This document shows, piece after piece, positions 8,952 to 64,000 of a DNA stretch of 64,000 nt. The position numbers and the translations under genes are program-made. The DNA is taken from positions 21,170 through 85,169 of IMG/VR virus record IMGVR_UViG_3300017917_000784; one strand, written 5' to 3'. The notes under the pieces are model-generated. The model did not search any database. It worked only from the letters and a program-made list of their open reading frames with translations, and had not been told where the DNA came from. Every line of letters begins with the position of its first letter. Positions within the stretch are counted from its first letter, which is position 1. Origin of the DNA: a virus.

Positions 8952-8970
8952 TCTTAAAGGAAACACTAAG

Positions 8971-15720: not shown

Positions 15721-15721
15721 T

Positions 15722-18158: not shown

Positions 18159-18200
18159 ATTACAAAGCGATCCACCGCTTAAACTCGGAGTAAAATATAA

Positions 18201-18947: not shown

Positions 18948-18957
18948 GGAAAAACAA

Positions 18958-19855: not shown

Positions 19856-20130
19856 AGTGGCTTAAAAGAAAACTACGCATTTGGCTTCAAGAAGAAGACA
19901 CGCTAGAATGTGCATCTATTGGAAAAATTCGAGTTTCAGAAGATTGTGTTGAAAGCGATCCTGTGTTAAACTTTAAAGTATATAATGCTATAGGTGGAAA
20001 GATTGTAGAGTTTAGGCACTATGATCGTCAGAAAGATCGAAATTTTAATCAAACCTATATCATTACTAATGATCAAGATTTTGGAGAACGAATTGCTAAA
20101 ATCGCAACTATGGAAGTATTAAAACAATGA
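19852..20130 (+). CDS. Hypothetical protein
   Basis: ATGA overlaps at both ends. Confidence 0.65.
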   Translation: MKWLKRKLRIWLQEEDTLECASIGKIRVSEDCVESDPVLNFKVYNAIGGKIVEFRHYDRQKDRNFNQTYIITNDQDFGERIAKIATMEVLKQ

Positions 20131-26597: not shown

Positions 26598-27770
26598 ATG
26601 TACCAAGATCCAATCGTTGATAAAATTGTTATTGCTCGTGTAGGGCTGTTGCTACGTCATCCATTTTTTGGAAATATGGCTACCCGAATGAAATTGGTAG
26701 ATGCCAGCGATTGGCTTCCCACTGCCGCAACTGATTTTCGTAATTTTTATTACAATCGAGAGTTTTTTGAAAAACTTAATCCGCGACAAGTGGAGTTTGT
26801 TGTAGCACACGAAATTCTACACTGTGTTTATGACCATATGAGTCGACGTGAAAGTCGCGATCCCCAAATTTTTAATATTGCCTGCGATTACTGTGTAAAC
26901 GGACTTTTGAAACGTGAGCGTATCGGCGAAGATCCTCCTGTAAAGTTTTTCCATGATTCTAAGTATTACGGTTGGAGTGCTGAACAAGTTTATGACGAAA
27001 TTTATTCAAAGTACGACGAAGAGCAACTAAAACAACTTGGCGAATTATTGGATGAGCATTTGGATGGCGAAGGCGATGGCAAAGATGGTCAACCAAAGTA
27101 CAGTAAAGAAGAACTTAAAAAGATTCGCGACGAAATCAAAGAAGCAATGATTCAGGCCGCACAAGCCGCAGGTGCAGGTAATGTTCCTGGCGAAATTGCT
27201 CGTATGATTAAAGAAATGACTGAGCCCAAGATGAACTGGCGTGAACTGTTGCGTCAGCAAATCCAAAGCACAATTAAAAATGATTTTAGTTTTAGTCGTC
27301 CTAGCCGTAAAGGCCAAATGACTGGTGCTATTCTTCCTGGCACTAACTTTGATACTACTATTGATATCTGCGTTAGTCTTGACATGAGCGGTTCTATTAC
27401 AGACGCTATGGGTTCAGATTTTCTAGGTGAGATTAAAGGCATTATGGACGAGTTTAAAGACTTTAATCTTAAAGTTTGGTGCTTTGATACTCGCGTGTAT
27501 AACGAGCAAGACTTTGATGGCTATAACGGAGATAGTATTAGTGAATATGAATTACACGGAGGCGGTGGTACTGACTTTATGTGTAATTGGGAATATATGA
27601 AAGAGCATGATATTGTTCCTAAAAAGTTTATTATGTTTACTGATGGATATCCTTGGGATAGTTGGGGCGACGAAGATTATTGCGACACTATCTTTGTTAT
27701 TCACGGAAATGAAAGTATTGTTCCTCCCTGGGGACAGTATGCTTATTACGAAGCACCTAAAAAATCGTGA
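26598..27770 (+). CDS. Metallopeptidase-like plus vWA domain protein (DUF2201 type)
   Basis: HEILH zincin motif; MIDAS DMSGS, GGGGTDF, FTDG. Confidence 0.9.
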   Translation: MYQDPIVDKIVIARVGLLLRHPFFGNMATRMKLVDASDWLPTAATDFRNFYYNREFFEKLNPRQVEFVVAHEILHCVYDHMSRRESRDPQIFNIACDYCVNGLLKRERIGEDPPVKFFHDSKYYGWSAEQVYDEIYSKYDEEQLKQLGELLDEHLDGEGDGKDGQPKYSKEELKKIRDEIKEAMIQAAQAAGAGNVPGEIARMIKEMTEPKMNWRELLRQQIQSTIKNDFSFSRPSRKGQMTGAILPGTNFDTTIDICVSLDMSGSITDAMGSDFLGEIKGIMDEFKDFNLKVWCFDTRVYNEQDFDGYNGDSISEYELHGGGGTDFMCNWEYMKEHDIVPKKFIMFTDGYPWDSWGDEDYCDTIFVIHGNESIVPPWGQYAYYEAPKKS

Positions 27771-35750: not shown

Positions 35751-36732
35751 GATTTCTCTCTAAATCTAAAGTAACACAGTGGAACCCGCCACCTAATGTT
35801 CGTTGCTGACGTCCTGGCAAGCAAGCACAATCTATACCATAGCTCTCAATTTGTCGACGCAGTTCATCTTGTCCCTCTAACATAACTACGAGGTCTGGTC
35901 TTATACTAAACAAATTAACGTTTAACCAAGGACTAGCGTTGCAGTATCCAGGATAGTGACCAATATCTACTGGGTCTGCGGCAAATATAGCGTCCCAACT
36001 TTGTAATTTTTTAGGTAGTTGATCTTTGCTTTTTACACGACTAGGATTTAACAACATCAGTCCTTCACGTAGAAAAGCAATAGTACTATCAATATGCATA
36101 TAACTATATACGCCTTCGACTAAATGAACTTTTTTATTTGGTACTAAACTCTGCAAATACTCCGCTCCGGTTTTATTTCCACTATTGCTGACTAGATAAT
36201 ACAAATCATCATTATCACGTAAAATATTTGCGGCATCAAAACTAGGTTCTACTTCGGTAAGTGCTAACGTATTTTTGTCACCTAAACAATTTATGTTATA
36301 CAATCCGTCTGGTCTAGAAATTTGCTTATCAATATACCTGACATTTTGTCTTGTATAAGGATAAAAATGCTCGTGCATGGCCATATATTCATTAGTTCTT
36401 GCTCGAAGAGGTTGTGGTGTTGCTAAAATTAAATCATCGTAAACTAGTACGTTATCTCTAGGACAATAATTATAATATTTAGGCACACGAGTTTTATCAG
36501 GCCGTAAAACTTCAACTCCTTCTTTACGTAATAAATCGCAAAACTTTTCTAAATCTTCGTTGGCTTCGTCTATAACTTGTTGCGGATATTTTCCTTGAGG
36601 GATTTCACTAACGTCTTTTTTATCTGCGTAATTTATAGTACGCAAACTAATGTCAAGAGACGGAATAGTAGCATCATCGGCAATACCGACTATTACTTTT
36701 TTTAACGGGTCGTATTCGTTTTTACTAAGCAT
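35743..36732 (-). CDS. Amidinotransferase
   Basis: NEYDPLKKVIVG, YCPRD, HIDST, GGFHC. Confidence 0.92.
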   Translation of the reverse strand: MLSKNEYDPLKKVIVGIADDATIPSLDISLRTINYADKKDVSEIPQGKYPQQVIDEANEDLEKFCDLLRKEGVEVLRPDKTRVPKYYNYCPRDNVLVYDDLILATPQPLRARTNEYMAMHEHFYPYTRQNVRYIDKQISRPDGLYNINCLGDKNTLALTEVEPSFDAANILRDNDDLYYLVSNSGNKTGAEYLQSLVPNKKVHLVEGVYSYMHIDSTIAFLREGLMLLNPSRVKSKDQLPKKLQSWDAIFAADPVDIGHYPGYCNASPWLNVNLFSIRPDLVVMLEGQDELRRQIESYGIDCACLPGRQQRTLGGGFHCVTLDLERNHE

Positions 36733-37315
36733 TGAAAACCTTCATTTTAGATATGTTTGGGTAGTCTTGCCAACTCCATTGTTTGGCTTCTCGTTCTATA
36801 CAACTTGGTAGTTTTTCTAAACCTAATTGAGCAGTTTCTGGAGTCATATAGTAATGATAACCCATTATATCTACGTCTTGCTCTGCCCATGGTACATCAG
36901 GCAACCTTCCATCGTAACTCATTTTTTTAAGTGTAATATAATCGTCTTTGTTATCGCAAAGTATCATACCGCCACGGCCTAGATTAAGATGTTTTCTAAA
37001 TTGAAAACTAAGACAAATTAGTTTTCCTGAAATATAACCATTTTGTTTCCAGTAAACTGCACCATCGATTATATTTGTATTACCTATTTCGTAATACTCC
37101 TGCCATTGTTCATTTTTAAATTCCCATGATAATCCTAACTTTTTAAAAGTCATAGGAATTGAAAGATATGTATGTGTAGGGCAAGTAACATTATTACTAT
37201 TACGAAGCCTTAAAGATAATTCAATGGCATGAGTACAACAATCGGTACTTACAGCGTAAGGAGCATTGTAAAATTCAGCAACTGATTGTTCGAACTCTGC
37301 TATCTTATTCCACAT
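36725..37315 (-). CDS. Short DegT/DnrJ/EryC1/StrS-family PLP aminotransferase
   Basis: FEQSVAEF, CCTHAIEL, IIDGA, SFQFRKHL...GG, GYHYYM; only 196 aa. Confidence 0.8.
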   Translation of the reverse strand: MWNKIAEFEQSVAEFYNAPYAVSTDCCTHAIELSLRLRNSNNVTCPTHTYLSIPMTFKKLGLSWEFKNEQWQEYYEIGNTNIIDGAVYWKQNGYISGKLICLSFQFRKHLNLGRGGMILCDNKDDYITLKKMSYDGRLPDVPWAEQDVDIMGYHYYMTPETAQLGLEKLPSCIEREAKQWSWQDYPNISKMKVFNA

Positions 37316-39721: not shown

Positions 39722-40407
39722 TGTGGGTCCGGAAATATAATTGCTTGATCTTTGTATTTTTTAAGACTTTTATTAACTAACTGTCTATGTTTTTCTCTAT
39801 CTAAAATTCCTAATACACAAAGCATGATTTTATTTTGTTCAACATAATCTGCTCCGTGCCAATGATATCGTTCACAAATACTAAAACATGCTTGTTTTTT
39901 AGTAATATTTGGATATATCTTTTCACTATCTTTATTTTCAGAAACATAGAAACTCTTACTTTCATGCTTATTCATTAGAACATTGTAACGTCGAGGCTCT
40001 ATATCAATTGCAATTTCTGTAGGATCGACTATGATATCTCTTTGCTGAGCGTCCATATGAGTATTGACTTGTTCTCTCTGCATCAACATTACCACAAAAC
40101 TAAATTCTAAAAACGGAAGTTGATCTAGCATATAAGGAATTTCAGGAAACACTTTGTCTATATCGTTAGCGTATAACGAGGGACCAAGATTTGGAATAAA
40201 TCTCGAATATAAACAATTTTTAAACTTTTCAACATCGTACCATTCATTACCTTTTAACCGTCCACGAACTGGAATTTTATTCCAATGCTCCATAGAATCA
40301 ATATTTTGATTCCAATCTTTAGCTCTGGTTTCTTGACAGAAATCTAAAAGTTTTTGTTCGTCAGGTAACTGAACATCGATGTCTATAGGTAAGTATGCTA
40401 TTGTCAT
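39718..40407 (-). CDS. Putative 2OG-Fe(II)/cupin oxygenase-like protein
   Basis: THMD...HWHGAD. Confidence 0.5.
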   Translation of the reverse strand: MTIAYLPIDIDVQLPDEQKLLDFCQETRAKDWNQNIDSMEHWNKIPVRGRLKGNEWYDVEKFKNCLYSRFIPNLGPSLYANDIDKVFPEIPYMLDQLPFLEFSFVVMLMQREQVNTHMDAQQRDIIVDPTEIAIDIEPRRYNVLMNKHESKSFYVSENKDSEKIYPNITKKQACFSICERYHWHGADYVEQNKIMLCVLGILDREKHRQLVNKSLKKYKDQAIIFPDPQ

Positions 40408-40928
40408 GTTTTTATTAAATCTATCATCAAAATTACTCTGTCGTTGTCTGTGGGATTAAAAGCAAAATGTTCTACTGTGTCATCAAATACAGTATCTTCG
40501 CCTTCGTTCCAATAATAAACATCACCACCAACATTAATCCATGCTTTACCAGATGCTATTAAACCTAAATGATACTTAAACACCGCAGGATTATCTGGGC
40601 CGCTATGTGGAAATATTTCGCAGCCGCCCTTTAATATACTAAACCCTACTAAGAAAATATTAGGTATTTTTTCTGCTACGCTTATAGTCACTGGACAAAA
40701 TTCTTTATCTACTAACCATTTACCATCAATAAACAACGGAAGAAAATCCCACTGCCCGTTGTTGTTAGTAACTACTCCGTCTGGGCCGTCAACAATAGTT
40801 CCTTGGAATGCTTTTGGAGGCCACTTTTCTGCGTGATCTTTAACAGATAAAAATTCATCACGAATAGTTTTCCAATGTTGTTTAACATGGCTTACAGAAG
40901 GAAAATTACTTGTGGAAAATATGTTCAT
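40404..40928 (-). CDS. Aspartyl/asparaginyl beta-hydroxylase domain protein
   Basis: CPVT, FSIL, PH, YHLGL, WNEGEDTVFDDTVEH..FN...RVILMID. Confidence 0.9.
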   Translation of the reverse strand: MNIFSTSNFPSVSHVKQHWKTIRDEFLSVKDHAEKWPPKAFQGTIVDGPDGVVTNNNGQWDFLPLFIDGKWLVDKEFCPVTISVAEKIPNIFLVGFSILKGGCEIFPHSGPDNPAVFKYHLGLIASGKAWINVGGDVYYWNEGEDTVFDDTVEHFAFNPTDNDRVILMIDLIKT

Positions 40929-53965: not shown

Positions 53966-55229
53966 TCATCCTTGGTTAAATGCCAAGATGTTACAGATTA
54001 CAGAAGCAGGTCAGTATCAACTTAGCGAAGGTAACTACCCAGTAGTTACTGTGAATAGTTATGAACAAATTAATGATTATTTAGATCAAGCCGACTGGCT
54101 GTTTGTGGAAACTGCGGGTGATGTGATTATTAACAGAGATCACTTGTGGAATAAAATACATAGTCTAACTGATAATATCGGAGTTATGGGGCATATTATT
54201 TGGTACCCTGAAGACAACACTCCCCACTTACACGATCAATGTTTTATTATTAATACTCGCGCATTTCCTAAAGGACTAAATTTTTCTTCTTACAAAGATT
54301 ATGGATCCAGATTTGTTCGAGGGCACGGCGACATGAACTGCGGACATGCTCCACTTAGCGTGTATTTGGCAGAAGAAAAAACAGAAAGAGTCATGGACTT
54401 TGGCGCAGCCGTTATGGAGGAGGCACTAAACCAAGGCTATACAGTTGTTAACTTTAACGAAGACTGGAGATATCCAGAAAATAATTTAAAATTTATTTCT
54501 ATAGAAGATTTAGTTGACGACCTAGGGTTTGATAAAGATAGATATCGCTTGCCGGCACGTGGCCATTTTTATCCTAAAATACGTCCAGAATTATTTGAAC
54601 CAGCACTTAAATCTTTAACAATTACAGAAGACCTTGATGAAAGTCAAATAATGATTATTGCTATTATTAAAAAGGCTCTGGAATTTAATTATTTAAATGT
54701 GTGGCATTGGGACTGTCATGCTCCGCACATACAAGCAGATGTAGTAATCAGTCCGGCTAACGGACTTTTAGGTGAAAGCATGGCTCTTACTAGCAATGCT
54801 AAGAAAATAATTTTTTATGATTTAAATCCTAATAATATAGAATTTAAAAAATCTTTATATCAATCATGGGAAGGAAAAAATTATCAAGAGTTCGCTAACT
54901 CCTGGGCAAAAGAAAGAAATATTGGTATTGAACCGCATTTAGATAGTGCTCAGTGCGAGTCTCAAAAGTATCAAGGATTAAATGAAAAAATATTAAACAA
55001 CTGGGACCATTTTAAAAATTTAGAAGTAGAGTTTCATAATATTGATCTTTTATCAGAAATTGATTTAATAGTTTCAAAATTGAACAATGCATTTATTCAC
55101 ACTAGTACTATTTTAAATTATTTTATGATTAGCAATTTTTTACATAGTAAAACTGAAATATTAGATGCTAGAAATAAAATTACAAATCGTTGTTTGTCAC
55201 GCAACTCGCACTGGCAGGAAAGCACATGA
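53925..55229 (+). CDS. Hypothetical protein (possible GT-A-like N-terminus and Rossmann-like C-terminus)
   Basis: 434-aa ORF; weak motifs HLHDQCFIIN and IIFYDLN. Confidence 0.45.
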   Translation: MPRVIFITVQISTNHPWLNAKMLQITEAGQYQLSEGNYPVVTVNSYEQINDYLDQADWLFVETAGDVIINRDHLWNKIHSLTDNIGVMGHIIWYPEDNTPHLHDQCFIINTRAFPKGLNFSSYKDYGSRFVRGHGDMNCGHAPLSVYLAEEKTERVMDFGAAVMEEALNQGYTVVNFNEDWRYPENNLKFISIEDLVDDLGFDKDRYRLPARGHFYPKIRPELFEPALKSLTITEDLDESQIMIIAIIKKALEFNYLNVWHWDCHAPHIQADVVISPANGLLGESMALTSNAKKIIFYDLNPNNIEFKKSLYQSWEGKNYQEFANSWAKERNIGIEPHLDSAQCESQKYQGLNEKILNNWDHFKNLEVEFHNIDLLSEIDLIVSKLNNAFIHTSTILNYFMISNFLHSKTEILDARNKITNRCLSRNSHWQEST

Positions 55230-55816
55230 CTTATCGATTGATACCGTTCACTGAAAATTTAGATTTAACAGAGTTTTATGCCGAATGTGCTCGCAGAGGT
55301 TTTGAAAATAATGTCAGTCAAAAAACTATGTTTGACTGTTTTAAAAACGAACGAGAGTGGGCCGGCTGGTTATTAGAATACAACGGAGAAATTATTGGAG
55401 GAGTTTGTTGCCATAGTTTTGACGATGTTATGGGTCCAGGCAGTTATAGATTATTGGCAAGAACTGTATGCTTTACTGACCGAAGTCATAAACCTATGCA
55501 CAATGTTCGAGGTTTTGTGTTTAAACATCAGTGCGTGGCTAGTCAGTTTTATATGCCTGTGGCTATACAATGGGCAGGGCGAGATAAAAAATTTTACGGC
55601 ACTAGTAATGCTAACAGTGTAGGTACTAGTAGAATTAGCCATAACATTTGGTTTCCTAAACATGTAGAACAAGGAACTTTTTATAAAGCCAAGGAAGTAT
55701 TTTACAGAGGATGGAACCAAACAGTATGGGGATTAAACATTGATACGTATTTTGAACAACTTAAAAAATTCCCTAAATGGGAATGCGAATTTCCTAACGA
55801 CGACCCACGACCATAA
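55226..55816 (+). CDS. GNAT-like hypothetical protein
   Basis: WLLEYNGEIIGGV beta-hairpin, YRLLART; ATGA overlap. Confidence 0.45.
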   Translation: MTYRLIPFTENLDLTEFYAECARRGFENNVSQKTMFDCFKNEREWAGWLLEYNGEIIGGVCCHSFDDVMGPGSYRLLARTVCFTDRSHKPMHNVRGFVFKHQCVASQFYMPVAIQWAGRDKKFYGTSNANSVGTSRISHNIWFPKHVEQGTFYKAKEVFYRGWNQTVWGLNIDTYFEQLKKFPKWECEFPNDDPRP

Positions 55817-56384
55817 ATCGTGTGTATAAAGGCAGTTCTAGTTCTCCTGCCCATAATACATCCACATCACACTGAGATTTAAATTCATCTAAAGTTTTAG
55901 CAATTCTAACGTGCTCAGGAATATTATAATTGTTGCTCTGTAATACTAGAATACTATTTCTAGGATGACCGATTGACCAAGTATCGTATTGATCCTGTGT
56001 AATATGTTCACAACTGGTATTAATTATAATATCAGCGTCACTGCGAATAGTACACATATCTGCTGTAACTGCTCTAAACCTTCCTTGTTCAAGTTCTATT
56101 TGATTCATATCAGATGCAATTTTTTTGCAGGTTGGGTCTATGTCAATGCTACGAATGTGTTTGATTGGTAAACCAGATTGAAACAACATACTGGATAACA
56201 CTCCTACCCATCCGCCATGTATGTCTATAGACACTTCTTGATTAACAAACGGTTTAATATTATCTATTAACCATTCTTTACTAAGAATCTGCCCTCTCCA
56301 AAAAGCATCCAAGGTACGCATAGGATCTTTACTAGATCTGATAGCTCTCATCCAGTGATGTAGGTGTTCTGTATCTATTTGCAT
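55794..56384 (-). CDS. Class I SAM-dependent methyltransferase
   Basis: IHGGWVG, SIDID, ADM, INTSCEH. Confidence 0.8.
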   Translation of the reverse strand: MQIDTEHLHHWMRAIRSSKDPMRTLDAFWRGQILSKEWLIDNIKPFVNQEVSIDIHGGWVGVLSSMLFQSGLPIKHIRSIDIDPTCKKIASDMNQIELEQGRFRAVTADMCTIRSDADIIINTSCEHITQDQYDTWSIGHPRNSILVLQSNNYNIPEHVRIAKTLDEFKSQCDVDVLWAGELELPLYTRFMVVGRR

Positions 56385-57046
56385 TTTTTTAAAATCTTTT
56401 CTAAAAAACTTATTGGGTTAGGTTGAGGTATTGTAGACTCTACATTTATATATTTTAAAAAATCACGAGCAAATGCAGTGTGACCATCTATACCTGCATG
56501 GTCGCCATCTAATGCTTTTTTGTAATTTCTTTCGTAATTGCCCATGAATAAAGGTACATAAGGAATATTTTCAAAAAGTTCTTTATCTCTAGGTTCAGCA
56601 ATCATTTGATAAAACTCTATGCCTAGCCCTATTAAATGATTATAGGAATCTCTTATGTAAAGTTTTGTTGTTATATCTGCATCATAGTATGCATGCAGAT
56701 TTTCATAATAACTACGTGCCATTATTTCTACTTCTCGATGACTGTTTCCTACCTGGCTAGGTAATAAATTTGTTATGTTAAAGGGATTTTGTATAACCGC
56801 AGTTCTATCAGGATACGTCCATAATATCAATACTAAGTCATCGGGCCGGAATTTAAATTTAGATATAGTATACCAAATTCGTTTGTTACTAGACCCTGGT
56901 ACTGATTTGTTAATGCATTTTCTTCCAAGAGTTGATGCAACTAATTCTGGCCAACAATATTTGCTAGAATTTTTAGTATTCGGCCAACAATCTTCTAATC
57001 CTACACCGTAGGTCATAGAGTCTCCGAATGCTATTAATCTTTTCAT
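56375..57046 (-). CDS. SGNH/GDSL hydrolase-like protein
   Basis: FGDSMTYG, PGSSN, DGDH...GH. Confidence 0.8.
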   Translation of the reverse strand: MKRLIAFGDSMTYGVGLEDCWPNTKNSSKYCWPELVASTLGRKCINKSVPGSSNKRIWYTISKFKFRPDDLVLILWTYPDRTAVIQNPFNITNLLPSQVGNSHREVEIMARSYYENLHAYYDADITTKLYIRDSYNHLIGLGIEFYQMIAEPRDKELFENIPYVPLFMGNYERNYKKALDGDHAGIDGHTAFARDFLKYINVESTIPQPNPISFLEKILKKCK

Positions 57047-58041
57047 TTTACTTTTGGTATTTTACTGTCTGCTGAACTAACACATGTTGGAGTTATACAT
57101 TTTTTAGGACTATCAAATAATTTAAATCCACTTATCAAAGTACCCAATGGTTCGTCATGACAACTATAACTACGTTTAACTTCGTTACCTCTTATTATAA
57201 CACTCTGATATCCAGCATTACAAGACCAATTTTGAAACTTATTAAAACCAAATGCGTTAAATCTTTCGGCTTGATCAAACAAATATTCGTGGCCTAACTC
57301 GTCAAATAACGCTATTTGATACAACTGTTCACCTCTTGATAATTGAGGAAATCCTGTTTGCATTGCTTCTATCATTTTATCATCATAACCACTAACTACA
57401 AAACTAGCAGTGGAGTCACTTTGAGGTTTTAATGTTACATTTATACCTCGCTTATAAAGTCGTTCGCAACGTTCATATGTTTCCCAAAATAATTCTGGCA
57501 CCATGACTTGATTTACTGTTACATGAACACCTTCATAATTTAACTGTAAACACTTATCTCCAAATTCTTGTTCACGTGCAAATTCTGCATGAAAACTGGC
57601 TGTTATACTTCTGCGTTGTAACATTTCAGTATTTTTACACCAAGTGTTCCACCACTTACTTCCTGGACTTAGATTAGTTGTCATGTGAATACTTTGATAA
57701 GGAGAGGCTACCCCGTCATCTAAATGTTTAACTAAATCTAGTAATCGTTTATATGCTGTAGGTTCTCCGCCACTAAAACTCCAATGGAAGTCTGTAAATC
57801 CTCGTTCACGTGCTTGACGTTTTATTTCGTCAACAGTATTTGTATAAATTTCATAATCTAGATGATCTAATTTGTCACTTCTAGCATAAGGCCAGCAGTA
57901 ACTACAATTATAATTACAAAAACGACCTAATATCCAACTGACGTTGAACAACGGTCGATCAAGCATGGTGCGTTGACCAAATTTAACTATTCGGTGGAAC
58001 GGGATATCTCGAAAAGAATTGTCGTAACCATTCAAAGTCAT
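57043..58041 (-). CDS. Radical SAM/SPASM protein
   Basis: CNYNCSYC, SGGEPT, TTN; CNAG...SC...C...C. Confidence 0.9.
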   Translation of the reverse strand: MTLNGYDNSFRDIPFHRIVKFGQRTMLDRPLFNVSWILGRFCNYNCSYCWPYARSDKLDHLDYEIYTNTVDEIKRQARERGFTDFHWSFSGGEPTAYKRLLDLVKHLDDGVASPYQSIHMTTNLSPGSKWWNTWCKNTEMLQRRSITASFHAEFAREQEFGDKCLQLNYEGVHVTVNQVMVPELFWETYERCERLYKRGINVTLKPQSDSTASFVVSGYDDKMIEAMQTGFPQLSRGEQLYQIALFDELGHEYLFDQAERFNAFGFNKFQNWSCNAGYQSVIIRGNEVKRSYSCHDEPLGTLISGFKLFDSPKKCITPTCVSSADSKIPKVK

Positions 58042-58678
58042 TTATTTTACCTAGTGCTTCTAAATCTCCAGCCTTGTGCATGCCATACATTTTGCCATCT
58101 TCTGCACCAAGGTATGCCCAATTGCCGTGGGGTCTGTCTACGTGTGGGGTACACCACTCCATTAATCTGTGTTCAGTTTCAACATCAACCTGTCCGTCTA
58201 TAACTTTACTGGCTAACTTAACACACTCACGAAAGGCACTCTTCCAAGTGTTAAACGGATCTGTATTAAAAGCAGTAATGTTACTAACTTCAGACATTGC
58301 TTTAAATTTTGTACTGATGCTAGTAGTCATATCTGGCTTAGAAGTATCCATATCCAGCGTTAACTTACGCGGTAATAGTTTTACTCCACCGTATCCGTAC
58401 TCTAAATCGTTTATAGGATTGCGACTGCGCCATACATGGACTACATCTAAGTCCCATTCGCTAACTTCGTAGTCAAAATTAAATGTAGGTAATACCTCTG
58501 CATCGCCATCCACTACCCAAAACATTTTAGTAAAGGCTTTTTTAGCCGCGGCAATATGTGCTTGATGAATTCCTGCCACATTGGTAACACGTTTAGCCAA
58601 GGGGTATCGATTTTTTAATCGTTCCCAATTGGCTTCTGCATTGGGCTCACCGTAACTGATAAACACTATGTCGTACAT
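57983..58678 (-). CDS. GT-A-like glycosyltransferase domain protein
   Basis: YDIVFISY, FWVVDGD (DxD), YGYGGVKL, AFRECVKL. Confidence 0.6.
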   Translation of the reverse strand: MYDIVFISYGEPNAEANWERLKNRYPLAKRVTNVAGIHQAHIAAAKKAFTKMFWVVDGDAEVLPTFNFDYEVSEWDLDVVHVWRSRNPINDLEYGYGGVKLLPRKLTLDMDTSKPDMTTSISTKFKAMSEVSNITAFNTDPFNTWKSAFRECVKLASKVIDGQVDVETEHRLMEWCTPHVDRPHGNWAYLGAEDGKMYGMHKAGDLEALGKINDFEWLRQFFSRYPVPPNS

Positions 58679-59352
58679 TAGTGCCACTCCACTTCAGGAA
58701 ACATTGTTATAGTTTTGTATTCAGTATTACTGGTATCGGACGAGATACGATAGATCATATCTGAAAGATGGTGTGGATCTAAAGCGTTAGTAACATCACC
58801 GCAAGGATATGGATTATTTTCATTCCATAAGGTTGTGTTAATACCGCCTGGATGTATACTAGATACTTTTATACCCTTCTGTTTAAGTTCTTGGCCTAAC
58901 ACTCCGGCAAAACTTTTTAAAGCGGCCTTGCTGGCACAGTAAATGCTTTGATGTTGAATTTCTCTTAGTCCTGCTACACTATTAACAAAAACAATTTTTG
59001 AGCCTGACTCCATTATTGTTAACGCTTGATTAGTCACATACATTGTGCCTTTTACATTAGTATCAATAACATTAGCAATATCAAAATATTTTGAATCTGC
59101 AAAGTCGCCTATATGAAAAGCAGCCGTATTGTTTATTAACACATCAATTTTAGTTTTAGTTTTTTTAAGTAGATCAAATGCAGTATGAACTTGACCAATG
59201 TTAGCCACATCAGCAACTATGTGTGTATAGTTGTCATAACTCTTTAAATCTGTTCTACTAAATCCAATAACTTTCCATCCATTTTGTAAAAATGTTTCTG
59301 TTAGTGCTTTTCCTAATCCTCGACTGGATCCTGTAATTAATACTGTTTTCAT
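58678..59352 (-). CDS. Short-chain dehydrogenase/reductase
   Basis: TGSSRGLG, LINN, NS, YCASK, HPGGINT. Confidence 0.93.
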   Translation of the reverse strand: MKTVLITGSSRGLGKALTETFLQNGWKVIGFSRTDLKSYDNYTHIVADVANIGQVHTAFDLLKKTKTKIDVLINNTAAFHIGDFADSKYFDIANVIDTNVKGTMYVTNQALTIMESGSKIVFVNSVAGLREIQHQSIYCASKAALKSFAGVLGQELKQKGIKVSSIHPGGINTTLWNENNPYPCGDVTNALDPHHLSDMIYRISSDTSNTEYKTITMFPEVEWH

Positions 59353-60410
59353 TGCATATTTCTCATTCGTTCGCAGGCCTGTTCTATTTCACTGCGTGTT
59401 ACGTCATTAATAATTTCACAACGGCCAATACTTGTAGGAACAGGTATATATTGATTACCATTGCGATGGTTCATTACATCTTGTAGACCTGCCCATAGCA
59501 AGTCAACATTATAAAAATCGTTGTGTTCTGTAGGCAAGTCACAACTGCGAACAGTTTTAAAAATACGTTGTAAATGATCGTTACTGATATAACCTCTTAA
59601 ATTACTAATACAAGCACTTAAAAGACAATCGAGTATTACTGCTTCTCCGTGCAATAAGTTAGGAACATTTTTCATTTCAACCATAGGACTAAAAGTATGT
59701 CCAAAATCCACAGGACGCTGTAAGTCACGTTCCCAGAGATTATCATTTAGTTCTTCAGTCATGCCTGAAATTGCACGATCAATTATTTTATCTGCTAATA
59801 CGTGATTTTGGAATTTAAGTCGAAGTAGTTCTTGCGGATTAAGTTCAATTAATTCAAATAATTGATAATCAAGAACTATGGCCAATTTTAAAATTTCTGC
59901 CATACCGTTGGAAATTTCTCTATGATCCTGCGTTTTAATAAAAGACTTATCAATTAATGTTAATGTTGGAGGATAAAAACTACCAATTCTATTTCTAAAT
60001 CCAAAATGATTAATACTTGTTTTAGCACCCACACTAGCATCGACAATGGCTAATAAAGTGGTTGGTATTCTTACATAAGGCACACCCCTACGATATATGC
60101 TACAACAAAAGCCCACTAAGTCTAACAGAACTCCACCGCCTACAGCAATAACTGTTTCTCTACGCAGTAATTTTATGTCCTGAAAAAACTTTAAAACACG
60201 TTCGGCGTTTTTCCAATCTTTTTCAGATTCTGTGCTACGCACTGTAAAAATTTCTGTACCAGCAGGAATTTTATCTTTATACAACGCATACACAGTTTCG
60301 TCAATGACTGCTATTCTACGTTGACCAGGAATAACGTCCCAATCTAATGCATTGGATACTTTAACTATATCAAACTCTACAGGAAGAGTAGTTTTTACAC
60401 GCCATGTCAT
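59349..60410 (-). CDS. Sedoheptulose 7-phosphate cyclase (2-epi-5-epi-valiolone synthase-like)
   Basis: GGGVLLD, YRRG, PTTLLAIVDAS, EELNDNLWE..LQRPVDFGHTFSP, LLHGEAV. Confidence 0.87.
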   Translation of the reverse strand: MTWRVKTTLPVEFDIVKVSNALDWDVIPGQRRIAVIDETVYALYKDKIPAGTEIFTVRSTESEKDWKNAERVLKFFQDIKLLRRETVIAVGGGVLLDLVGFCCSIYRRGVPYVRIPTTLLAIVDASVGAKTSINHFGFRNRIGSFYPPTLTLIDKSFIKTQDHREISNGMAEILKLAIVLDYQLFELIELNPQELLRLKFQNHVLADKIIDRAISGMTEELNDNLWERDLQRPVDFGHTFSPMVEMKNVPNLLHGEAVILDCLLSACISNLRGYISNDHLQRIFKTVRSCDLPTEHNDFYNVDLLWAGLQDVMNHRNGNQYIPVPTSIGRCEIINDVTRSEIEQACERMRNMQ

Positions 60411-61366
60411 AATAGTTTATTTACGAGAGCGCAAGCATGAGCATAAAAAAACTTTGCCGCTTCTATGTTTCCAGCGTGACATTTAAACGGCAACATACGA
60501 AAAAACTGTGTGGCTTCGAATAATCTTATTAGCAAATATTCTTGGCTAGTGTATCTGCGCTCTAATTCCTCGTTAAATAGTTTATCAAAATACAATAGAT
60601 TTTTTGGAAACTTAGTGTCGAATCCTGTAACATTTCCGTTTACACGTATCACACTGTCATTAAGAATACCGTAGTAACTGCTACTACACTGTAATATCTG
60701 ACTGTAATCCATAAATTTACTGTCTACTATACCTTCCTCGTATAAGTCAATAAACACTATACCAGTGTCTTCACTATAGAGAATATTTTCTAATGTAGGG
60801 TTTCCGTGTACGTAACTTTCTGTAGTTATAACCTGATCAAACAACTTAGATACTTGATCTAATTTATGTTTAATTCCACTAAATGTTTCTCCCCAGTGTA
60901 CGTAAACATCCATTTGATAAAAATTTTCAAACTCAGAAAATTGTCTAGCATCATTAATTTTTTGTAAAACTTCTTCTTGAAAATAAAGTTTTAAACTGCT
61001 GATGTTTGGCTGATAAGTGTGTTGATGTAAAGTGTCAAATGCCTGCCACAACTGTTGATGCATTCTTTCAGTCTGTTGGACGTCTAGTAAATTTTCTTTA
61101 AACAGTGTTTTAATATCTTTAGCATCAATATATTCAATGTCAAAATATGCGCCTTTATCGCACACACCAGCATCTAATACTCTCGGTACGTGCTGAGGAA
61201 TTATCTGATTAAATCTTTGTAATTTTTTTAGTTGGCTGTACCACCGTACATAGCCGTATTCTCTATCGGCAGTAGTTGAAATAGTTTTTCTTACAAATTT
61301 GCGATCACCGTCAACATATAAACAAGTTGAATTTAAACTACCGCCTTTTAGTTCAATTATATCCAT
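60407..61366 (-). CDS. APH/choline-kinase-like phosphotransferase
   Basis: KGGSL...FVRK, HGNPTLENIL, FID. Confidence 0.72.
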   Translation of the reverse strand: MDIIELKGGSLNSTCLYVDGDRKFVRKTISTTADREYGYVRWYSQLKKLQRFNQIIPQHVPRVLDAGVCDKGAYFDIEYIDAKDIKTLFKENLLDVQQTERMHQQLWQAFDTLHQHTYQPNISSLKLYFQEEVLQKINDARQFSEFENFYQMDVYVHWGETFSGIKHKLDQVSKLFDQVITTESYVHGNPTLENILYSEDTGIVFIDLYEEGIVDSKFMDYSQILQCSSSYYGILNDSVIRVNGNVTGFDTKFPKNLLYFDKLFNEELERRYTSQEYLLIRLFEATQFFRMLPFKCHAGNIEAAKFFYAHACALVNKLL

Positions 61367-61367
61367 A

Positions 61368-62600
61368 TTAAAAATCTAATACCCACTCAGGTAAGGAACC
61401 GCCTACATATCCCCATTTTTCTATTGCTGTCAAAAACTCTTTTCCAGGAGTTTTGTCAATGGCCTGACGCATGGCTAGTGCTCCGGCTAGAGTACCGTCT
61501 GGGTGTCCGTGTACAGCACCGCCGCAGTTAGCAAGAAAATCAGTGCCAAATTTGTCTGCTGTTGGGTTAACAATTCCCGGATGCATGCCGCAACTTAATG
61601 CTGGCAGTACATTTCTCTTATGTAAAGTTTCCATGGTGTATTTAAGTTCATCTTCGTTGTCACTTAAATAGCCTCCCCACATTCCTGCATGGATAGTATC
61701 GACTCCGCACAGGCCTGCAAGATCACATAGCACTGCCCAATCGATACCAAAAGGATTACGCTTGTCTGTAAGAATCTTATCACCGCTCTTTTGGTAATGT
61801 ATAAACAATGGAAGATCCAATCTGCGTATTGAATTATAAACTCCTAATCCACTCCAAAAATTAATGTGGATACCATTACCACCATTGTTGGCTACGAACT
61901 TAGCACGGTCAAGAATAGTATGATGATCGCCGTTAATACAGAAGCAATAGATAACTCCACGTCCGCAGTTATTAACAATATTTGAAATTAATTCAACACG
62001 ATCCTCGAGACGACAAAATGCTGGGTTACTAAGAATCTCATCTTCTTTAATAAAATCGACACCGCCATCTAATAGTTCTTTAACCATGTCGGCCAGCGTA
62101 CTAGGACTAATACCAGTTTTAGGTTTTACAATGGCTCCGGACAGCGGTTTGTCATAACGATTAACAAATTTTCTAATACCGGTAATGCCCCTGCGAGGTC
62201 CTAAAAATTGTTGTTCAACATCTTTAGGAAATTCAACGTGTTTTAATCTACACGATTTGAATACATTGATATCCATCTGACCGCCCATTAATTGGCACAT
62301 AAGGTGACTAATACCGTCGCCTTGCCAGTCAGAATTTATTTTAGGAAAACCAATCTTAACTGTACCACTATGCTTGCCTGTTAATTCTGATTCATTGTGA
62401 TAAATCACACAGGATGACATTTCAAACAATTCATCAGTTTCCCACTGATTTCGTATTTTTGGATTTCCAACACTTTGACCTATAGCAAGATTCCAAGCGG
62501 CATCGCGTAAATCTCCTATGTCAGAATACGTTTCAATATAATATGTTGCAATAACACAACGATCTTTTTCTGTTTGAGTTAGTTCTCGAAAAAATTTCAT
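61368..62600 (-). CDS. RuBisCO-like protein (form IV)
   Basis: GP..GI.GIR, IVKPK, GGVDFIKEDE, TIHAG, SCG, GGAVHGHP; SD AAAGGA before ATG 62600. Confidence 0.93.
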   Translation of the reverse strand: MKFFRELTQTEKDRCVIATYYIETYSDIGDLRDAAWNLAIGQSVGNPKIRNQWETDELFEMSSCVIYHNESELTGKHSGTVKIGFPKINSDWQGDGISHLMCQLMGGQMDINVFKSCRLKHVEFPKDVEQQFLGPRRGITGIRKFVNRYDKPLSGAIVKPKTGISPSTLADMVKELLDGGVDFIKEDEILSNPAFCRLEDRVELISNIVNNCGRGVIYCFCINGDHHTILDRAKFVANNGGNGIHINFWSGLGVYNSIRRLDLPLFIHYQKSGDKILTDKRNPFGIDWAVLCDLAGLCGVDTIHAGMWGGYLSDNEDELKYTMETLHKRNVLPALSCGMHPGIVNPTADKFGTDFLANCGGAVHGHPDGTLAGALAMRQAIDKTPGKEFLTAIEKWGYVGGSLPEWVLDF

Positions 62601-62631
62601 ACTTTTCCTTTCCGTTATTGTAAAGTATTTT

Positions 62632-62967
62632 TTATTTTTTGTCAACTATTTGGACTTCAAACTTATCATTAGGGTCGCTTAGATTCCGTACTACGACTAA
62701 TTTAACATCTGTAAGATATTCGCATTGACTAATTTCGTAAGGCTCCAAAACAAAGATATCTCCTGTTTTAAAAATTTCTCCGTTTATTTTAATTTCGCCC
62801 TCTACTACTAGGTTAATCTCAGTGCCTTGTTTATGAAAATGATCTTGATGAAATTCACCTGCACTATGCTGATGAAACCCAACTTCAAAATTTTCTTTGA
62901 GTAGACTTGGTTCAAAGTTTCCTACAAACCAACCTTTAATAAAGTTATTAATGTGTGCTTTTTTCAT
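62632..62967 (-). CDS. Cupin domain protein
   Basis: GWFVGNFEP, HFHK..TEIN, GDIF.LEPYE. Confidence 0.82.
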   Translation of the reverse strand: MKKAHINNFIKGWFVGNFEPSLLKENFEVGFHQHSAGEFHQDHFHKQGTEINLVVEGEIKINGEIFKTGDIFVLEPYEISQCEYLTDVKLVVVRNLSDPNDKFEVQIVDKK

Positions 62968-63689
62968 TAATCAAACCTTGTGCTTAGTCTTTGAAATTCT
63001 GTTAAATCGTCTGGCGTTCCTACTGGCCAAAATTCTGTATTGCTTATAGGAAATTTTTTTACTGTTTTTCCTCTAGCAATGGAATAATTATAAACTGGCG
63101 CAACATAAAACTCTCCGTTTTCTTTGTGATTATCTTTAATCATCTGCTCGGCATCCTGAAAAAAGTCACGTGTATGTGACCAGTGATAATATCCTGTAGT
63201 AGCGTCGTTGCTAATAACTTTTTTCTCTCTTACTTCAACAACAACTCCGTTCTCTTCACGAACATAACTACATTTAGGACTGGTTTCGTTATAGGTTACA
63301 ATATAACTTATTTCAGGATTTCTCTGTATTTCATCACGAAACTGATAAGATTTCCAATCCATAAATTGATCCCCGTTTACACTAAGCATTGGAGCATCTA
63401 AATCTTTAATATAAGGTTTGGTGTATAATAAACTTTCGGCAGCACCCTGTGTGTTACCATCTATGGCTATAATTTCATCCCCTAACCCTAATAGCATTTT
63501 TTCTAAAAAATTAAACTGCACCAAGTGTTCTTTTCTTATTACAAAATGAATTCGCCCTTTAAGTCCTATAGTTTCTACGCTGTGATATATCATAGGTGCG
63601 CCATGATATGCAATAAGATATTTAGGTAATTCGTAACCTGCTTGTTTAAAACGACTTCCCTGGCCGCATAGACCTATTAATATATTCAT
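62967..63689 (-). CDS. Sugar-phosphate nucleotidyltransferase (NTP_transferase family)
   Basis: GQGSRF..AGYELPK, NGDQ, EKK.IS, GEFYVAPVYN, GTPDDL. Confidence 0.88.
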   Translation of the reverse strand: MNILIGLCGQGSRFKQAGYELPKYLIAYHGAPMIYHSVETIGLKGRIHFVIRKEHLVQFNFLEKMLLGLGDEIIAIDGNTQGAAESLLYTKPYIKDLDAPMLSVNGDQFMDWKSYQFRDEIQRNPEISYIVTYNETSPKCSYVREENGVVVEVREKKVISNDATTGYYHWSHTRDFFQDAEQMIKDNHKENGEFYVAPVYNYSIARGKTVKKFPISNTEFWPVGTPDDLTEFQRLSTRFD

Positions 63690-64000
63690 TGTATTTCCTT
63701 GGCTAAAACTTTGGCCCATATTTCGTGAGTTTCTTTAGTAGGGTGTCCATACTCGTGCCGGCTCCATTTATTATTATAAACTTCAGCACTCCACGTATTT
63801 TTCATATACATATTTTCTAATTCTATATTCCATTTTGATTTTGCGTAATCTTGCCATTGCTGAGGATGATTCCCAATAGCAACAAAATCAAAATATTTTA
63901 TTCCTAATCCTTGACACAACATTCTTAAATTCATCATATATAATGCTGTCAAATTTTCTCCGTAACTGTCTGAATATATTTCATAATATGCTTTATGATA
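63686..64000 (-). CDS. C-terminal part of an SGNH-like protein (5' end outside window)
   Basis: Frame open to 64000; GHPTKETHEIWA terminal motif. Confidence 0.55.
   Translation of the reverse strand, partial: YHKAYYEIYSDSYGENLTALYMMNLRMLCQGLGIKYFDFVAIGNHPQQWQDYAKSKWNIELENMYMKNTWSAEVYNNKWSRHEYGHPTKETHEIWAKVLAKEIQ

What the first reader, a model, noticed from the sequence alone, without database searches (positions are those of the whole stretch)
61368..62600. Virus-encoded RuBisCO-like protein in a biosynthetic context
It keeps K175/K177 (KPK), the carbamylation and Mg site (KEDE for KDDE) and H327. It lacks E60, H294 (HYQK) and K334 (GGYL), so it is not a carboxylase. Established RLP roles are methionine salvage enolase/isomerase and apionate/hamamelose catabolism. 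An anabolic role in sugar-nucleotide or cyclitol synthesis, in a phage, would be a new RLP function.
Basis: partly seen in the sequence, partly recalled or inferred. Interest (0 to 1): 0.75.

Follow-up and report, generated by a model that had tools for sequence, protein, structure and literature searches.

The report
Phage RuBisCO-like enzyme for sugar activation
A giant phage carries an intact RuBisCO relative that cannot fix CO2 and travels with, or is fused to, a sugar-activating enzyme, so it probably tailors an unusual sugar phosphate for glycan building, a role never tested for this enzyme family.

Summary
Window 61368-62600 (-) is an intact 410-aa RuBisCO large-subunit homologue (Pfam 1e-43). 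It keeps KPK, K-E-D-E and H327, and it has lost E60, N123, H294 and K334.

The contig is a jumbo phage fragment. A contig of a ~91%-identical relative from another study is collinear with it across the operon.

The protein belongs to a separate, well-supported clade, far from MtnW, with a nearly invariant 19-site signature. It is probably the phage 'Form IV-like' RLP clade of Jaffe et al. 2018, whose function is unknown.

In 112 of 119 related loci (phages, Pelagibacter, DPANN archaea, Legionella) the RLP lies beside a sugar-1-phosphate nucleotidyltransferase. A small cupin is present in 74 loci and a 150-aa GDPD-like protein in 70. Natural fusions exist: RLP-NTPtr, RLP-NTPtr-cupin and GDPD-RLP.

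A biosynthetic, nucleotide-sugar role is therefore well supported. The chemistry is inferred.

The cyclitol idea is only locally supported. The sedoheptulose-7-P-cyclase-like gene, kinase and SDR accompany the RLP in 8 of 119 loci.

This scan found the same module earlier on other DNA. New here are the jumbo-phage host and the C7-cyclase extension.

The parts
61368..62600 (-). RuBisCO-like protein, 410 aa, member of the nucleotidyltransferase-linked RLP clade
   Evidence: Pfam PF00016 E 1e-43. 19-site signature. Clade support 100 in FastTree and 99 SH-aLRT in IQ-TREE.
62037..62048 (-). KEDE motif: carbamylation lysine and Mg2+ ligands (K201, D203, E204 equivalents)
62118..62126 (-). KPK motif (K175/K177 equivalents)
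61788..61799 (-). HYQK: H294>Q and R295>K
61665..61694 (-). IHAG...GGYL: H327 kept; loop-6 K334>Y
62632..62967 (-). Small cupin (111 aa), conserved partner of the RLP
   Evidence: Weak Pfam cupin hits. In 74 of 119 loci. Fused after RLP-NTPtr in P0121 and P0122. AF2 pLDDT 94; generic small-cupin fold; best mutual TM to archaeal phosphomannose isomerase 7zvm, 0.66/0.70.
62967..63719 (-). Sugar-1-phosphate nucleotidyltransferase (250 aa), conserved partner of the RLP
   Evidence: Pfam NTP_transferase 1.7e-6. PDB 4evw 7e-18, then RmlA-type enzymes. In 112 of 119 loci. Fused to the RLP in P0121, P0122 and P0126.
63686..64000 (-). C-terminal part of a further ORF cut by the contig end (DUF6071-like in the 97%-related contig L002)
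60407..61366 (-). APH/fructosamine-kinase-like kinase (319 aa)
   Evidence: Pfam APH 2.8e-7. Atlas neighbours are APH. No PDB sequence hit.
59349..60410 (-). Sedoheptulose-7-phosphate-cyclase-like DHQS homologue (353 aa)
   Evidence: PDB 4p53 5.9e-77 and 5tpr 2.5e-64, against true DHQS at 3e-42 or weaker. aroB scores 218 bits against a cut-off of 305.
58678..59352 (-). Short-chain dehydrogenase/reductase (224 aa)
   Evidence: Pfam adh_short 7e-40.
57983..58687 (-). Viral-only 234-aa protein with an invariant D-G-D; weakly GT-A-like
   Evidence: No Pfam hit. Atlas: viral clusters, nearest named GT2 at 0.87. Foldseek top hits are GT-A glycosyltransferases, but TM is 0.3-0.43.
57043..58041 (-). 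Radical SAM protein (332 aa)
   Evidence: Pfam PF04055 5.8e-12.
56375..57046 (-). GDSL-like hydrolase/acyltransferase (223 aa), weak match
   Evidence: Pfam hits below cut-off.
55794..56384 (-). 196-aa protein of no known family, last gene of the co-conserved block
   Evidence: 70-91% identical in the 8 related loci.

Best explanation
The gene encodes a working, non-carboxylating enzyme of a distinct RuBisCO-superfamily clade. Its job is tied to a sugar-1-phosphate nucleotidyltransferase. It keeps the carbamylated-lysine/Mg2+ site, K175/K177, H327 and the glycine loops that hold the C1 phosphate. It has its own fixed replacements: Q294, Y334, G60, N65, P66, G123. I propose the following. It binds a phosphorylated 2-keto sugar through the C1 phosphate and enolises it on the Mg2+-carbamate centre. 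It releases an isomer or epimer. The small cupin carries out a further aldose-ketose or epimer step. The nucleotidyltransferase then couples the phosphate ester to NMP, giving an unusual NDP-sugar for the glycosyltransferases of the island. In this jumbo phage the module is joined to a sedoheptulose-7-P-cyclase-like enzyme, a kinase, an SDR and a GT-A-like protein, so the island probably builds a glycan with a C7-derived unit. Shown: fold, residues, clade, phage origin, conserved adjacency, fusions. Inferred: substrate, reaction type, order of steps, acceptor.
For: (1) The ORF is intact and the active-site signature is invariant in 50 of 50 clade rows at K175, K177, K201, D203, E204, Q294, Y334, S379 and G381, down to about 35% identity. 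This argues for a conserved catalytic function. (2) The nucleotidyltransferase cluster is present in 112 of 119 RLP loci and is nearly always the neighbouring gene. This holds in phages, Pelagibacter, Woesearchaeota/Nanoarchaeia, Verrucomicrobia and Legionella. The 5 loci with no tblastn hit are L028, L032, L090, L118 and L120; 4 are cut close to the RLP and L090 is a 3.1-kb contig. (3) Fusions: P0126 is RLP-NTPtr (667 aa). P0121 and P0122 are RLP-NTPtr-cupin (813 and 817 aa). P0163 is GDPD-like-RLP, a fragment. (4) The neighbours are glycan genes: GT2, GT11, GT25, WavE, methyltransferases, NAD epimerase/dehydratases. In a complete Pelagibacter genome they include a GT9 heptosyltransferase, an SIS protein, a PfkB kinase and a HAD-NTPtr fusion. 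(5) The NTPtr is of the sugar-1-phosphate class: PDB 4evw, then RmlA and ManC types. (6) In RLP-less cassettes a HAD_2 enzyme sits upstream of, or is fused to, a 59-66% identical NTPtr. HAD-like genes occur in 53 of 71 RLP-less loci and in 8 of 128 RLP loci. On the NTPtr tree the RLP link needs 12-13 changes. RLP and HAD therefore look like alternative feeders of one kind of NTPtr. (7) From recalled knowledge of the family: RuBisCO and the methionine-salvage RLPs act on 2-keto compounds that carry a C1 phosphate. That is the group a nucleotidyltransferase needs.
Against: No biochemical datum exists for any member. Adjacency and fusion show coupling, not the order of steps or the reaction. The HAD/RLP anticorrelation comes from two biased samples of related loci, and 8 loci have both. 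The P2-site residues are partly kept (K/R295, H327), so a bisphosphate or a nucleotide-bound substrate is not excluded. The cupin fold search does not discriminate between isomerase, epimerase and other cupins. RLP identity (82-88%) and NTPtr identity (36-41%) between cassette types are incongruent. That fits module shuffling, but it also weakens a strict one-substrate argument. The acceptor is unknown: host glycan, virion or DNA. No RNA evidence was obtainable.
Confidence: 0.6

Rival explanations
1. The RLP acts after activation. It enolises or epimerises an NDP-linked keto-sugar made by the nucleotidyltransferase, with the nucleotide diphosphate occupying the phosphate site.
For: In the fusions the order is RLP-NTPtr-cupin. 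Loop-6 K334 and the N-terminal-domain residues that close the RuBisCO site are all replaced, which could open the pocket. Small cupins often act on NDP-keto-sugars (recalled).
Against: No 4,6-dehydratase is a constant neighbour. No RuBisCO-family enzyme is known to take a nucleotide-bound substrate (recalled). HAD enzymes in the parallel cassettes act on free sugar phosphates.
Confidence: 0.15
2. In this phage the RLP is a step of a C7-cyclitol (pseudosugar) pathway. It epimerises or enolises a phosphorylated keto-cyclitol made by the sedoheptulose-7-P cyclase and the kinase, before reduction and nucleotidylation.
For: The operon runs NTPtr-cupin-RLP-kinase-cyclase-SDR with overlapping or abutting stops and starts. 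The cyclase matches PDB 4p53 at 5.9e-77. The same order is kept in 8 loci. Keto-cyclitol phosphate epimerisation is an enolisation (recalled from acarbose/validamycin work).
Against: Only 8 of 119 RLP loci carry the cyclase, kinase and SDR. RLPs 82-88% identical, with the same 19-site signature in the rows checked, sit in cassettes without them, and so do all cellular members. In L135 the cyclase and SDR sit beside the GDPD-like gene with no RLP in view.
Confidence: 0.12
3. It is a salvage or catabolic RLP, such as a DK-MTP-1-P enolase, an MTRu-1-P isomerase or an apionate-type decarboxylase, carried as an auxiliary metabolic gene.
For: These are the only proven RLP roles (passage in PMC6389311). 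An APH-like kinase, the fold class of MTR kinase (recalled), is the next gene.
Against: NCBIfam MtnW scores are 158 against 409 and 122 against 513.6, and OiaX is 150 against 700. The clade is separate from the MtnW clade, which was labelled with P0237 at 652 bits against 409. The signature differs at N123, K177, H294, R295 and K334. No salvage genes are in the neighbourhood.
Confidence: 0.05
4. The region is host DNA or a chimeric assembly, not phage.
For: The record is a 23%-complete linear fragment with no capsid gene. The island has lower GC than the left half of the window. Relatives exist in Pelagibacter.
Against: The same contig carries a Rak2-like DNA polymerase, an exonuclease, a thymidylate synthase, a QueE-like protein and a GTP cyclohydrolase. 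Depth is even over 44-64 kb in the likely source run. Contigs of 9-14 kb at about 91% identity from another study are collinear, one spanning 55992-64000 and running on. An independent 89-kb contig has the operon at 97% identity plus a 97% copy of window gene 26598-27770 about 38 kb away. Four of 5 other RLP-bearing viral records tested encode a T4-type capsid protein, among them a 518-kb record with terminal repeats.
Confidence: 0.02
5. It is a true CO2-fixing RuBisCO.
For: Its best NCBIfam and PDB matches are form III enzymes.
Against: E60, N123, H294 and K334 are replaced. It scores 205 bits against the form III cut-off of 497.
Confidence: 0.01

Closest known systems
Phage 'Form IV-like' RuBisCO-related proteins (Jaffe, Castelle, Dupont & Banfield, Mol Biol Evol 2018/19, PMC6389311; passages read)
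   Same: Found on IMG/VR phage contigs and a large curated phage, and linked to Myoviridae. Divergent from other RLPs and placed outside them. Key residues are partly kept. My clade behaves the same way.
   Different: That paper leaves the function open. Its main text never mentions nucleotidyltransferase, cupin, glycosyl or SAR11 (0 occurrences). Identity of the two clades could not be checked sequence by sequence because the supplements are closed. Here the carrier is a Rak2/Atu_ph07-like jumbo phage and the operon has a C7-cyclase extension.
MtnW/YkrW 2,3-diketo-5-methylthiopentyl-1-phosphate enolase
   Same: RuBisCO fold, carbamate/Mg2+ site, and enolisation of a C1-phosphorylated 2-keto compound (recalled).
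   Different: Separate clade. NCBIfam cut-offs not reached. Different signature. No methionine-salvage neighbours.
Form III archaeal RuBisCO (e.g. PDB 2cwx)
   Same: Best sequence match, 2.6e-43 over residues 17-383.
   Different: Four catalytic residues are lost. 205 bits against a cut-off of 497.
HAD-NTPtr plus mini-GDPD cassettes of cultured Synechococcus T4-like phages (S-CAM9, S-8S55, S-PRM1, DSL-LC03 and others) and of Pelagibacter
   Same: The same kind of nucleotidyltransferase, 59-66% identical to RLP-linked ones. The same 150-aa GDPD-like partner. The same glycan islands.
   Different: A HAD_2 enzyme, often fused to the NTPtr, takes the feeder position. No cultured phage record holds the RLP: 0 matches in 50,697 records.
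3-oxo-isoapionate-4-phosphate decarboxylase OiaX and related sugar-acid RLPs
   Same: An RLP with a sugar-kinase partner; P0124 is an RLP fused to an OiaK-like kinase.
   Different: 150 bits against a cut-off of 700. Other clade. Those are catabolic.
Sedoheptulose-7-phosphate cyclases of validamycin/acarbose-type pathways (PDB 4p53; name recalled as ValA)
   Same: The neighbouring gene 59349-60410 matches at 5.9e-77. Cyclase, kinase, reductase and nucleotidyltransferase recall the logic of NDP-valienol synthesis (recalled).
   Different: Those pathways contain no RLP. The product here is unknown.

Membership tests
RuBisCO large-subunit superfamily | C-terminal catalytic TIM-barrel domain (PF00016) | tested here: met
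   E 1e-43, 150.2 bits against a cut-off of 30.1, residues 138-382.
RuBisCO large-subunit superfamily | N-terminal domain (PF02788) | tested here: inconclusive
   18.4 bits against a cut-off of 20.7. The full-length alignment to 2cwx starts at residue 17.
RuBisCO large-subunit superfamily | Carbamylation lysine and Mg2+ ligands (K201, D203, E204) | tested here: met
   KEDE at aa 185-188.
Bona fide RuBisCO (forms I-III) | Complete catalytic set, including E60, N123, H294 and K334 | tested here: not met
   G, G, Q and Y at these sites.
Bona fide RuBisCO (forms I-III) | NCBIfam cut-offs (TIGR03326, NF003252, NF010002) | tested here: not met
   205 against 497, 192 against 438, 115 against 489.
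MtnW/YkrW enolase | NCBIfam equivalog cut-offs (NF007095, TIGR03332) | tested here: not met
   158 against 409 and 122 against 513.6.
MtnW/YkrW enolase | Placement in the MtnW clade | tested here: not met
   The MtnW clade was labelled by P0237 at 652 bits. It lies on the other side of a branch with support 100 in FastTree on 143 rows and 99 SH-aLRT on 70 rows.
OiaX decarboxylase | NCBIfam equivalog cut-off NF042437 | tested here: not met
   150 against 700.
Phage 'Form IV-like' RLP (Jaffe et al.) | Phage-borne clade lying outside all other RLPs | tested here: met
   50 rows lie on one side of a fully supported branch. 256 viral-contig relatives. T4-type capsid gene in 4 of 5 carrier records tested.
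Phage 'Form IV-like' RLP (Jaffe et al.) | Sequence identity with that paper's own sequences | not testable with these tools
Nucleotidyltransferase-linked RLP clade (defined here) | Signature G60 N65 P66 G123 Q294 Y334 with K175, K177, K201, D203, E204, S379 and G381 kept | tested here: met
   The window row is identical to the clade consensus.
Nucleotidyltransferase-linked RLP clade (defined here) | Adjacent sugar-1-phosphate nucleotidyltransferase, with or without a small cupin | tested here: met
   Window genes 62967-63719 and 62632-62967. Present in 112 and 74 of 119 loci.
Nucleotidyltransferase-linked RLP clade (defined here) | Enzymatic activity on a keto-sugar phosphate | not testable with these tools
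   Needs an assay.

The most novel reading that the evidence does not exclude
The RLP is the first anabolic member of the RuBisCO superfamily. It would be an Mg2+-carbamate enolase/isomerase that converts a C1-phosphorylated ketose, possibly a sedoheptulose-derived C7 compound, into the sugar-1-phosphate taken by its partner nucleotidyltransferase. It would thus replace the usual isomerase/kinase/HAD-phosphatase route to an NDP-heptose-like donor. The C7 guess rests on two things: the heptose genes beside it in Pelagibacter and the S7P cyclase beside it here. In this jumbo phage it would feed a glycan that also carries a phage-made C7 cyclitol.
Probability: 0.2. Interest if true: 0.85.

Novelty: new variant of a known kind. 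Interest (0 to 1): 0.65.

Why it matters
Several RuBisCO-like clades still have no known function, and every proven RLP role is salvage or catabolism. Here a whole clade is tied by gene order and by natural fusion to a sugar-activating enzyme. The clade is abundant in aquatic phages, SAR11, DPANN archaea and Legionella. That turns 'orphan RLP' into a bench-testable hypothesis with a defined enzyme set of three or four proteins, or one fusion protein. If it holds, the RuBisCO fold gains a biosynthetic use. It would also show that phages carry alternative feeder modules (HAD, RLP+cupin, S7P cyclase+kinase) for one glycan-decoration core.

Tried and rejected
Context came from the search for related loci instead.
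- tblastn of the RLP against 50,697 phage records found no match, and megablast of window 1-20000 found none. Records near the window's own genome may be left out of that collection.
- The window's DNA polymerase was not found in the five related records G001-G005. Those fragments do not reach that far. A nearer gene was found in 1 of 3 records.
- No Gp23 capsid gene and no mini-GDPD gene are in the window's own 85-kb record. It is a 23% fragment, so this shows nothing.
- No RNA holder was listed for window 55000-64000. No statement on expression is made.
- Read laying used Logan contigs, not raw reads, so breakpoints inside reads could not be examined.
- Many short 'joints' of X1 and X3 have sides of 21-62 letters. 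I read them as other strains or paralogous radical-SAM genes, not as rearrangements.
- The cupin's Foldseek matches do not single out a function.
- The unk234 Foldseek matches have TM below 0.5, so 'glycosyltransferase' stays a weak lead.
- The kinase has no PDB sequence hit and no NCBIfam equivalog.
- GmhA-like, PfkB-like and GT9-like genes occur in only 4, 3 and 1 of 199 loci. The heptose link is a lead from L084 and L108, not a rule.
I find a HAD_2-family protein, which could be a mutase or a phosphatase, and 8 loci hold both.
- Literature: searches found no paper linking an RLP to a nucleotidyltransferase, and none on a phage S7P cyclase. The library lacks most subscription journals. Supplements of PMC6389311 could not be read.
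- Complex prediction and the third homologous-protein search were not used.
- My ORF calling (longest ORFs of 70 aa or more, greedy) and single-linkage BLAST clusters are crude.
- Rows dropped: 35 of the 150 representatives were shorter than 340 aa, and 2 rows had a domain shorter than 320 aa. The 70-row tree used rows I chose from the 143.
Full report
OBSERVATION. Window 61368-62600 (- strand) is an uninterrupted ORF of 410 codons. It starts at an ATG preceded by AAGGA. The longer TTG start at 62645 overlaps the upstream gene. Homologues of 410-412 aa cover the 410-aa form end to end, so the longer start is not supported. Pfam places residues 138-382 in the RuBisCO large-chain catalytic domain (E 1e-43). 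KPK, K-E-D-E, H327, S379, G381 and G403/G404 are kept. E60>G, H294>Q and K334>Y are changed. They were checked against rows that carry the full canonical set.

IS IT PHAGE, AND IS THE CONTIG SOUND?
- The window is the right-hand 64 kb of an 85,169-bp IMG/VR record that CheckV rates 23% complete.
- The + strand half encodes a family-B DNA polymerase. Its best relatives are jumbo phages: Sinorhizobium Phosso 52%, Agrobacterium Atu_ph07 49%, Escherichia 121Q 48%.
- It also encodes an exonuclease, a thymidylate synthase, a GTP cyclohydrolase, a QueE-like enzyme and two conserved phage families, phrog_1297 and phrog_1314.
- Logan contigs of the probable source run cover 44-64 kb at an even 170-230.
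- A second sample of the same study gives identical pieces.
- A run from a different study gives contigs of 9-14 kb at roughly 91% identity that are collinear over the whole 20 kb. One spans 55992-64000 and continues about 6 kb beyond the window's end.
- An independent 89-kb viral contig has the operon at 94-97% protein identity. It also has a 97% copy of window gene 26598-27770 about 38 kb from its RLP.
- Of five other RLP-bearing viral records tested, four encode a T4-type major capsid protein. One of them is a 518-kb record with terminal repeats.

Host contamination is therefore very unlikely.

WHICH RLP? No NCBIfam equivalog cut-off is reached: form III 205 against 497, MtnW 158 against 409 and 122 against 513.6, OiaX 150 against 700. 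An exhaustive HMMER search of 1.84 billion representatives found 1452 proteins at E<=1e-3 and 93 at E<=1e-30.

I aligned the 115 full-length proteins among the best 150 together with the window protein, ten closer homologues and 19 locus proteins; 143 rows were kept. In that alignment 50 rows share the signature G-N-P-G-K-K-K-D-E-Q-(K/R)-x-H-Y-x-S-G-G-G. One divergent row, P0141, has P-L-S at the second to fourth sites, and two rows have Q at the H327 site. These rows reach down to Legionella, Woesearchaeota and Elusimicrobia members at about 35-45% identity.

These 50 rows sit on one side of a branch with support 100 (FastTree). A 70-row IQ-TREE run gives SH-aLRT 99. The MtnW clade, labelled by P0237 at 652 bits against a cut-off of 409, lies among the other 93 rows. 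So do the rows with the bona fide signature, among them P0164, which passes NF003252. [quoted passage not shown] I could not compare sequences directly.

GENE CONTEXT ACROSS 119 LOCI. A scan of IMG/VR gave 256 relatives, of which the best 80 were kept. The species-genome collection gave 39. After crude ORF calling and clustering:
- A PF00483-type nucleotidyltransferase cluster is present in 112 of the 119 loci, nearly always next to the RLP.
- A 106-113-aa cupin is present in 74.
- A 150-aa protein with the motif HRGN...EN...E.D...GHD is present in 70.

A profile of that 150-aa protein matches only the N-terminal 58 residues of glycerophosphodiester phosphodiesterases (3i10, E 1e-4). I call it mini-GDPD.

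The remaining neighbours are GT2, GT11 and GT25 glycosyltransferases, WavE, methyltransferases and NAD-dependent epimerase/dehydratases.

Fusions tie the parts together. P0126 is RLP-NTPtr. P0121 and P0122 are RLP-NTPtr-cupin. P0163 is mini-GDPD-RLP and is a fragment. Earlier notes of this scan had reported the pairing and the fusion on other DNA. I reached the pairing independently and verified the fusions here.

THE WIDER CASSETTE. The mini-GDPD is more common than the RLP: at least 591 viral-contig relatives.
- Among the best 80 loci, 68 have a related NTPtr, 20 a cupin and only 9 an RLP.
- Where the RLP is missing, a 200-aa HAD_2 protein usually sits directly upstream of the NTPtr.
- HAD-like genes occur in 53 of 71 RLP-less loci and in 8 of 128 RLP loci. 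The two samples are biased and the loci are related, so this is a count, not a test.
- Cultured Synechococcus T4-like phages carry this version (17 records).
- In S-CAM9 the HAD is fused to an NTPtr that is 64-66% identical to RLP-linked NTPtrs.
- In S-SM2 a class II aldolase/adducin-family protein lies in the same neighbourhood.
- In a complete Pelagibacter chromosome, a HAD-NTPtr fusion, an SIS protein, a PfkB kinase and a GT9 heptosyltransferase lie a few kilobases from mini-GDPD-NTPtr-RLP. The two NTPtr copies are 59% identical.
- On a 174-row NTPtr tree the 'RLP-linked' label needs 12-13 changes, at least 6 of them forced by well-supported branches.

I read this as one NTPtr/mini-GDPD core served by interchangeable feeder modules.

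WHAT IS SPECIAL IN THIS WINDOW. Downstream of the RLP, with abutting or overlapping stop and start codons, come six more genes:
- an APH-like kinase;
- a DHQS homologue;
- an SDR;
- a viral-only 234-aa protein with an invariant DGD and weak GT-A likeness;
- a radical SAM protein;
- a GDSL-like protein.

The DHQS homologue matches PDB 4p53 (5.9e-77) and 5tpr (2.5e-64) far better than true dehydroquinate synthases, which score 3e-42 or weaker. From recall, 4p53 is the 2-epi-5-epi-valiolone synthase ValA and 5tpr a desmethyl-4-deoxygadusol synthase. The gene is therefore a sedoheptulose-7-phosphate-cyclase type. No cultured phage record has a close relative; the best hits are aroB-like at 32% or less.

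This extension occurs in 8 of the 119 loci, all viral and all close to the window. The window's RLP is 82-88% identical to RLPs of cassettes without it, whereas its NTPtr is only 36-41% identical to theirs. In the rows checked the 19-site signature is identical. The modules have been shuffled, and the RLP's job is unlikely to be cyclitol-specific.

The upstream part of the cassette, including the mini-GDPD in the 97% relative L002, lies beyond the contig end.

MECHANISM. Shown: an intact RuBisCO-fold enzyme with the metal/carbamate centre, K175/K177, H327 and the C1-phosphate loops, under strong conservation. It is physically and evolutionarily coupled to a sugar-1-phosphate-class nucleotidyltransferase (4evw, then RmlA and ManC types), a small cupin and a mini-GDPD, inside glycan islands.

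Inferred, from what is established for the superfamily (recalled: RuBP, DK-MTP-1-P and MTRu-1-P are all 2-keto compounds with a C1 phosphate): the RLP enolises a C1-phosphorylated keto sugar and returns an isomer or epimer. The cupin adds an aldose-ketose or epimer step. Its nearest structures in size and mutual TM are 105-115-aa archaeal phosphomannose isomerases, a weak hint. The NTPtr then activates the phosphate ester.

I give about 0.6 to the general statement 'feeder enzyme of a nucleotide-sugar pathway'. I give perhaps half of that to the specific order and chemistry. The alternatives are action on the NDP-sugar, a keto-cyclitol phosphate substrate in this phage, a salvage role, contamination and carboxylation. 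Each is listed with its odds and its refuting result.

KNOWN OR NEW. Phage RLPs are in print: PMC6389311 reports about 80 sequences plus a ~200-kb phage, function unclear. Its main text says nothing on gene context. My eight literature searches found no paper on an RLP-nucleotidyltransferase link or on a phage S7P cyclase, within the limits of that library.

This scan has met the same module on other genomes, so the module itself is not new to the scan. The present window adds a jumbo-phage carrier, the C7-cyclase/kinase/SDR extension, the quantified HAD alternative and the GDPD-RLP fusion.

I class it as a new variant of a known kind. The gene is a member of a described but functionally orphan clade, for which the evidence now points to a biosynthetic role that no RuBisCO-family enzyme is known to have.

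Noticed in passing
window 34560-58041: At least 8 radical SAM ORFs (two with SPASM domains) lie in about 25 kb of a phage contig. With them are a DegT-type aminotransferase piece (36725-37315) and an Asp/Arg beta-hydroxylase-like oxygenase (40404-40928). Many ORFs have no family. A ninth radical SAM-like ORF is at 10643-11611.
   Followed up: no
L002:4742-5185 and at least 591 viral-contig relatives (L121-L200): A 150-aa 'mini-GDPD' keeps the catalytic motifs of the glycerophosphodiester phosphodiesterase N-terminal half but is only about half a TIM barrel. It is very common beside nucleotidyltransferases in aquatic phages, and it is annotated 'hypothetical' in most cultured Synechococcus phages.
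   Followed up: partly
L202 (NC_031922.1) 2308-3693; L084:2758-4125: HAD_2-nucleotidyltransferase fusion proteins (461 and 456 aa) occur in Synechococcus phage S-CAM9 and in a complete Pelagibacter genome. They parallel the RLP-nucleotidyltransferase fusions.
   Followed up: partly
P0164 (726 aa), P0176 (742 aa): RuBisCO with the full catalytic signature is fused C-terminally to an eIF-2B/ribose-1,5-bisphosphate-isomerase-like domain. This puts two steps of the archaeal AMP pathway in one chain.
   Followed up: no
window 18201-18947 and 20127-20987: A GTP cyclohydrolase and a QueE-like radical SAM enzyme are present. These are genes of the 7-deazaguanine type often used by phages for DNA modification (recalled).
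   Followed up: no
L201 (GU071095.1) 5025-6450: In Synechococcus phage S-SM2, a class II aldolase/adducin-family gene and a 103-aa 'phosphoheptose isomerase' directly precede the mini-GDPD. This is another enediolate-type enzyme in the slot that the RLP holds elsewhere.
   Followed up: no
L058 (record G009): A 518,643-bp viral record with direct terminal repeats, rated 100% complete, carries the NTPtr-cupin-RLP module and a T4-type capsid gene.
   Followed up: no
L135:~3000-6429: An SDR and an S7P-cyclase-like gene lie directly upstream of the mini-GDPD on a contig with no RLP in view. This suggests that the cyclase module is another feeder of the same core.
   Followed up: no
L082, L083: The closest 'cellular' relatives (79% and 66%) are on 4.6-kb and 3.3-kb contigs of MAGs labelled Methanobacteriota and Crocinitomicaceae. 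Both have the phage-like order NTPtr-cupin-RLP-miniGDPD and may be mis-binned viral fragments.
   Followed up: no
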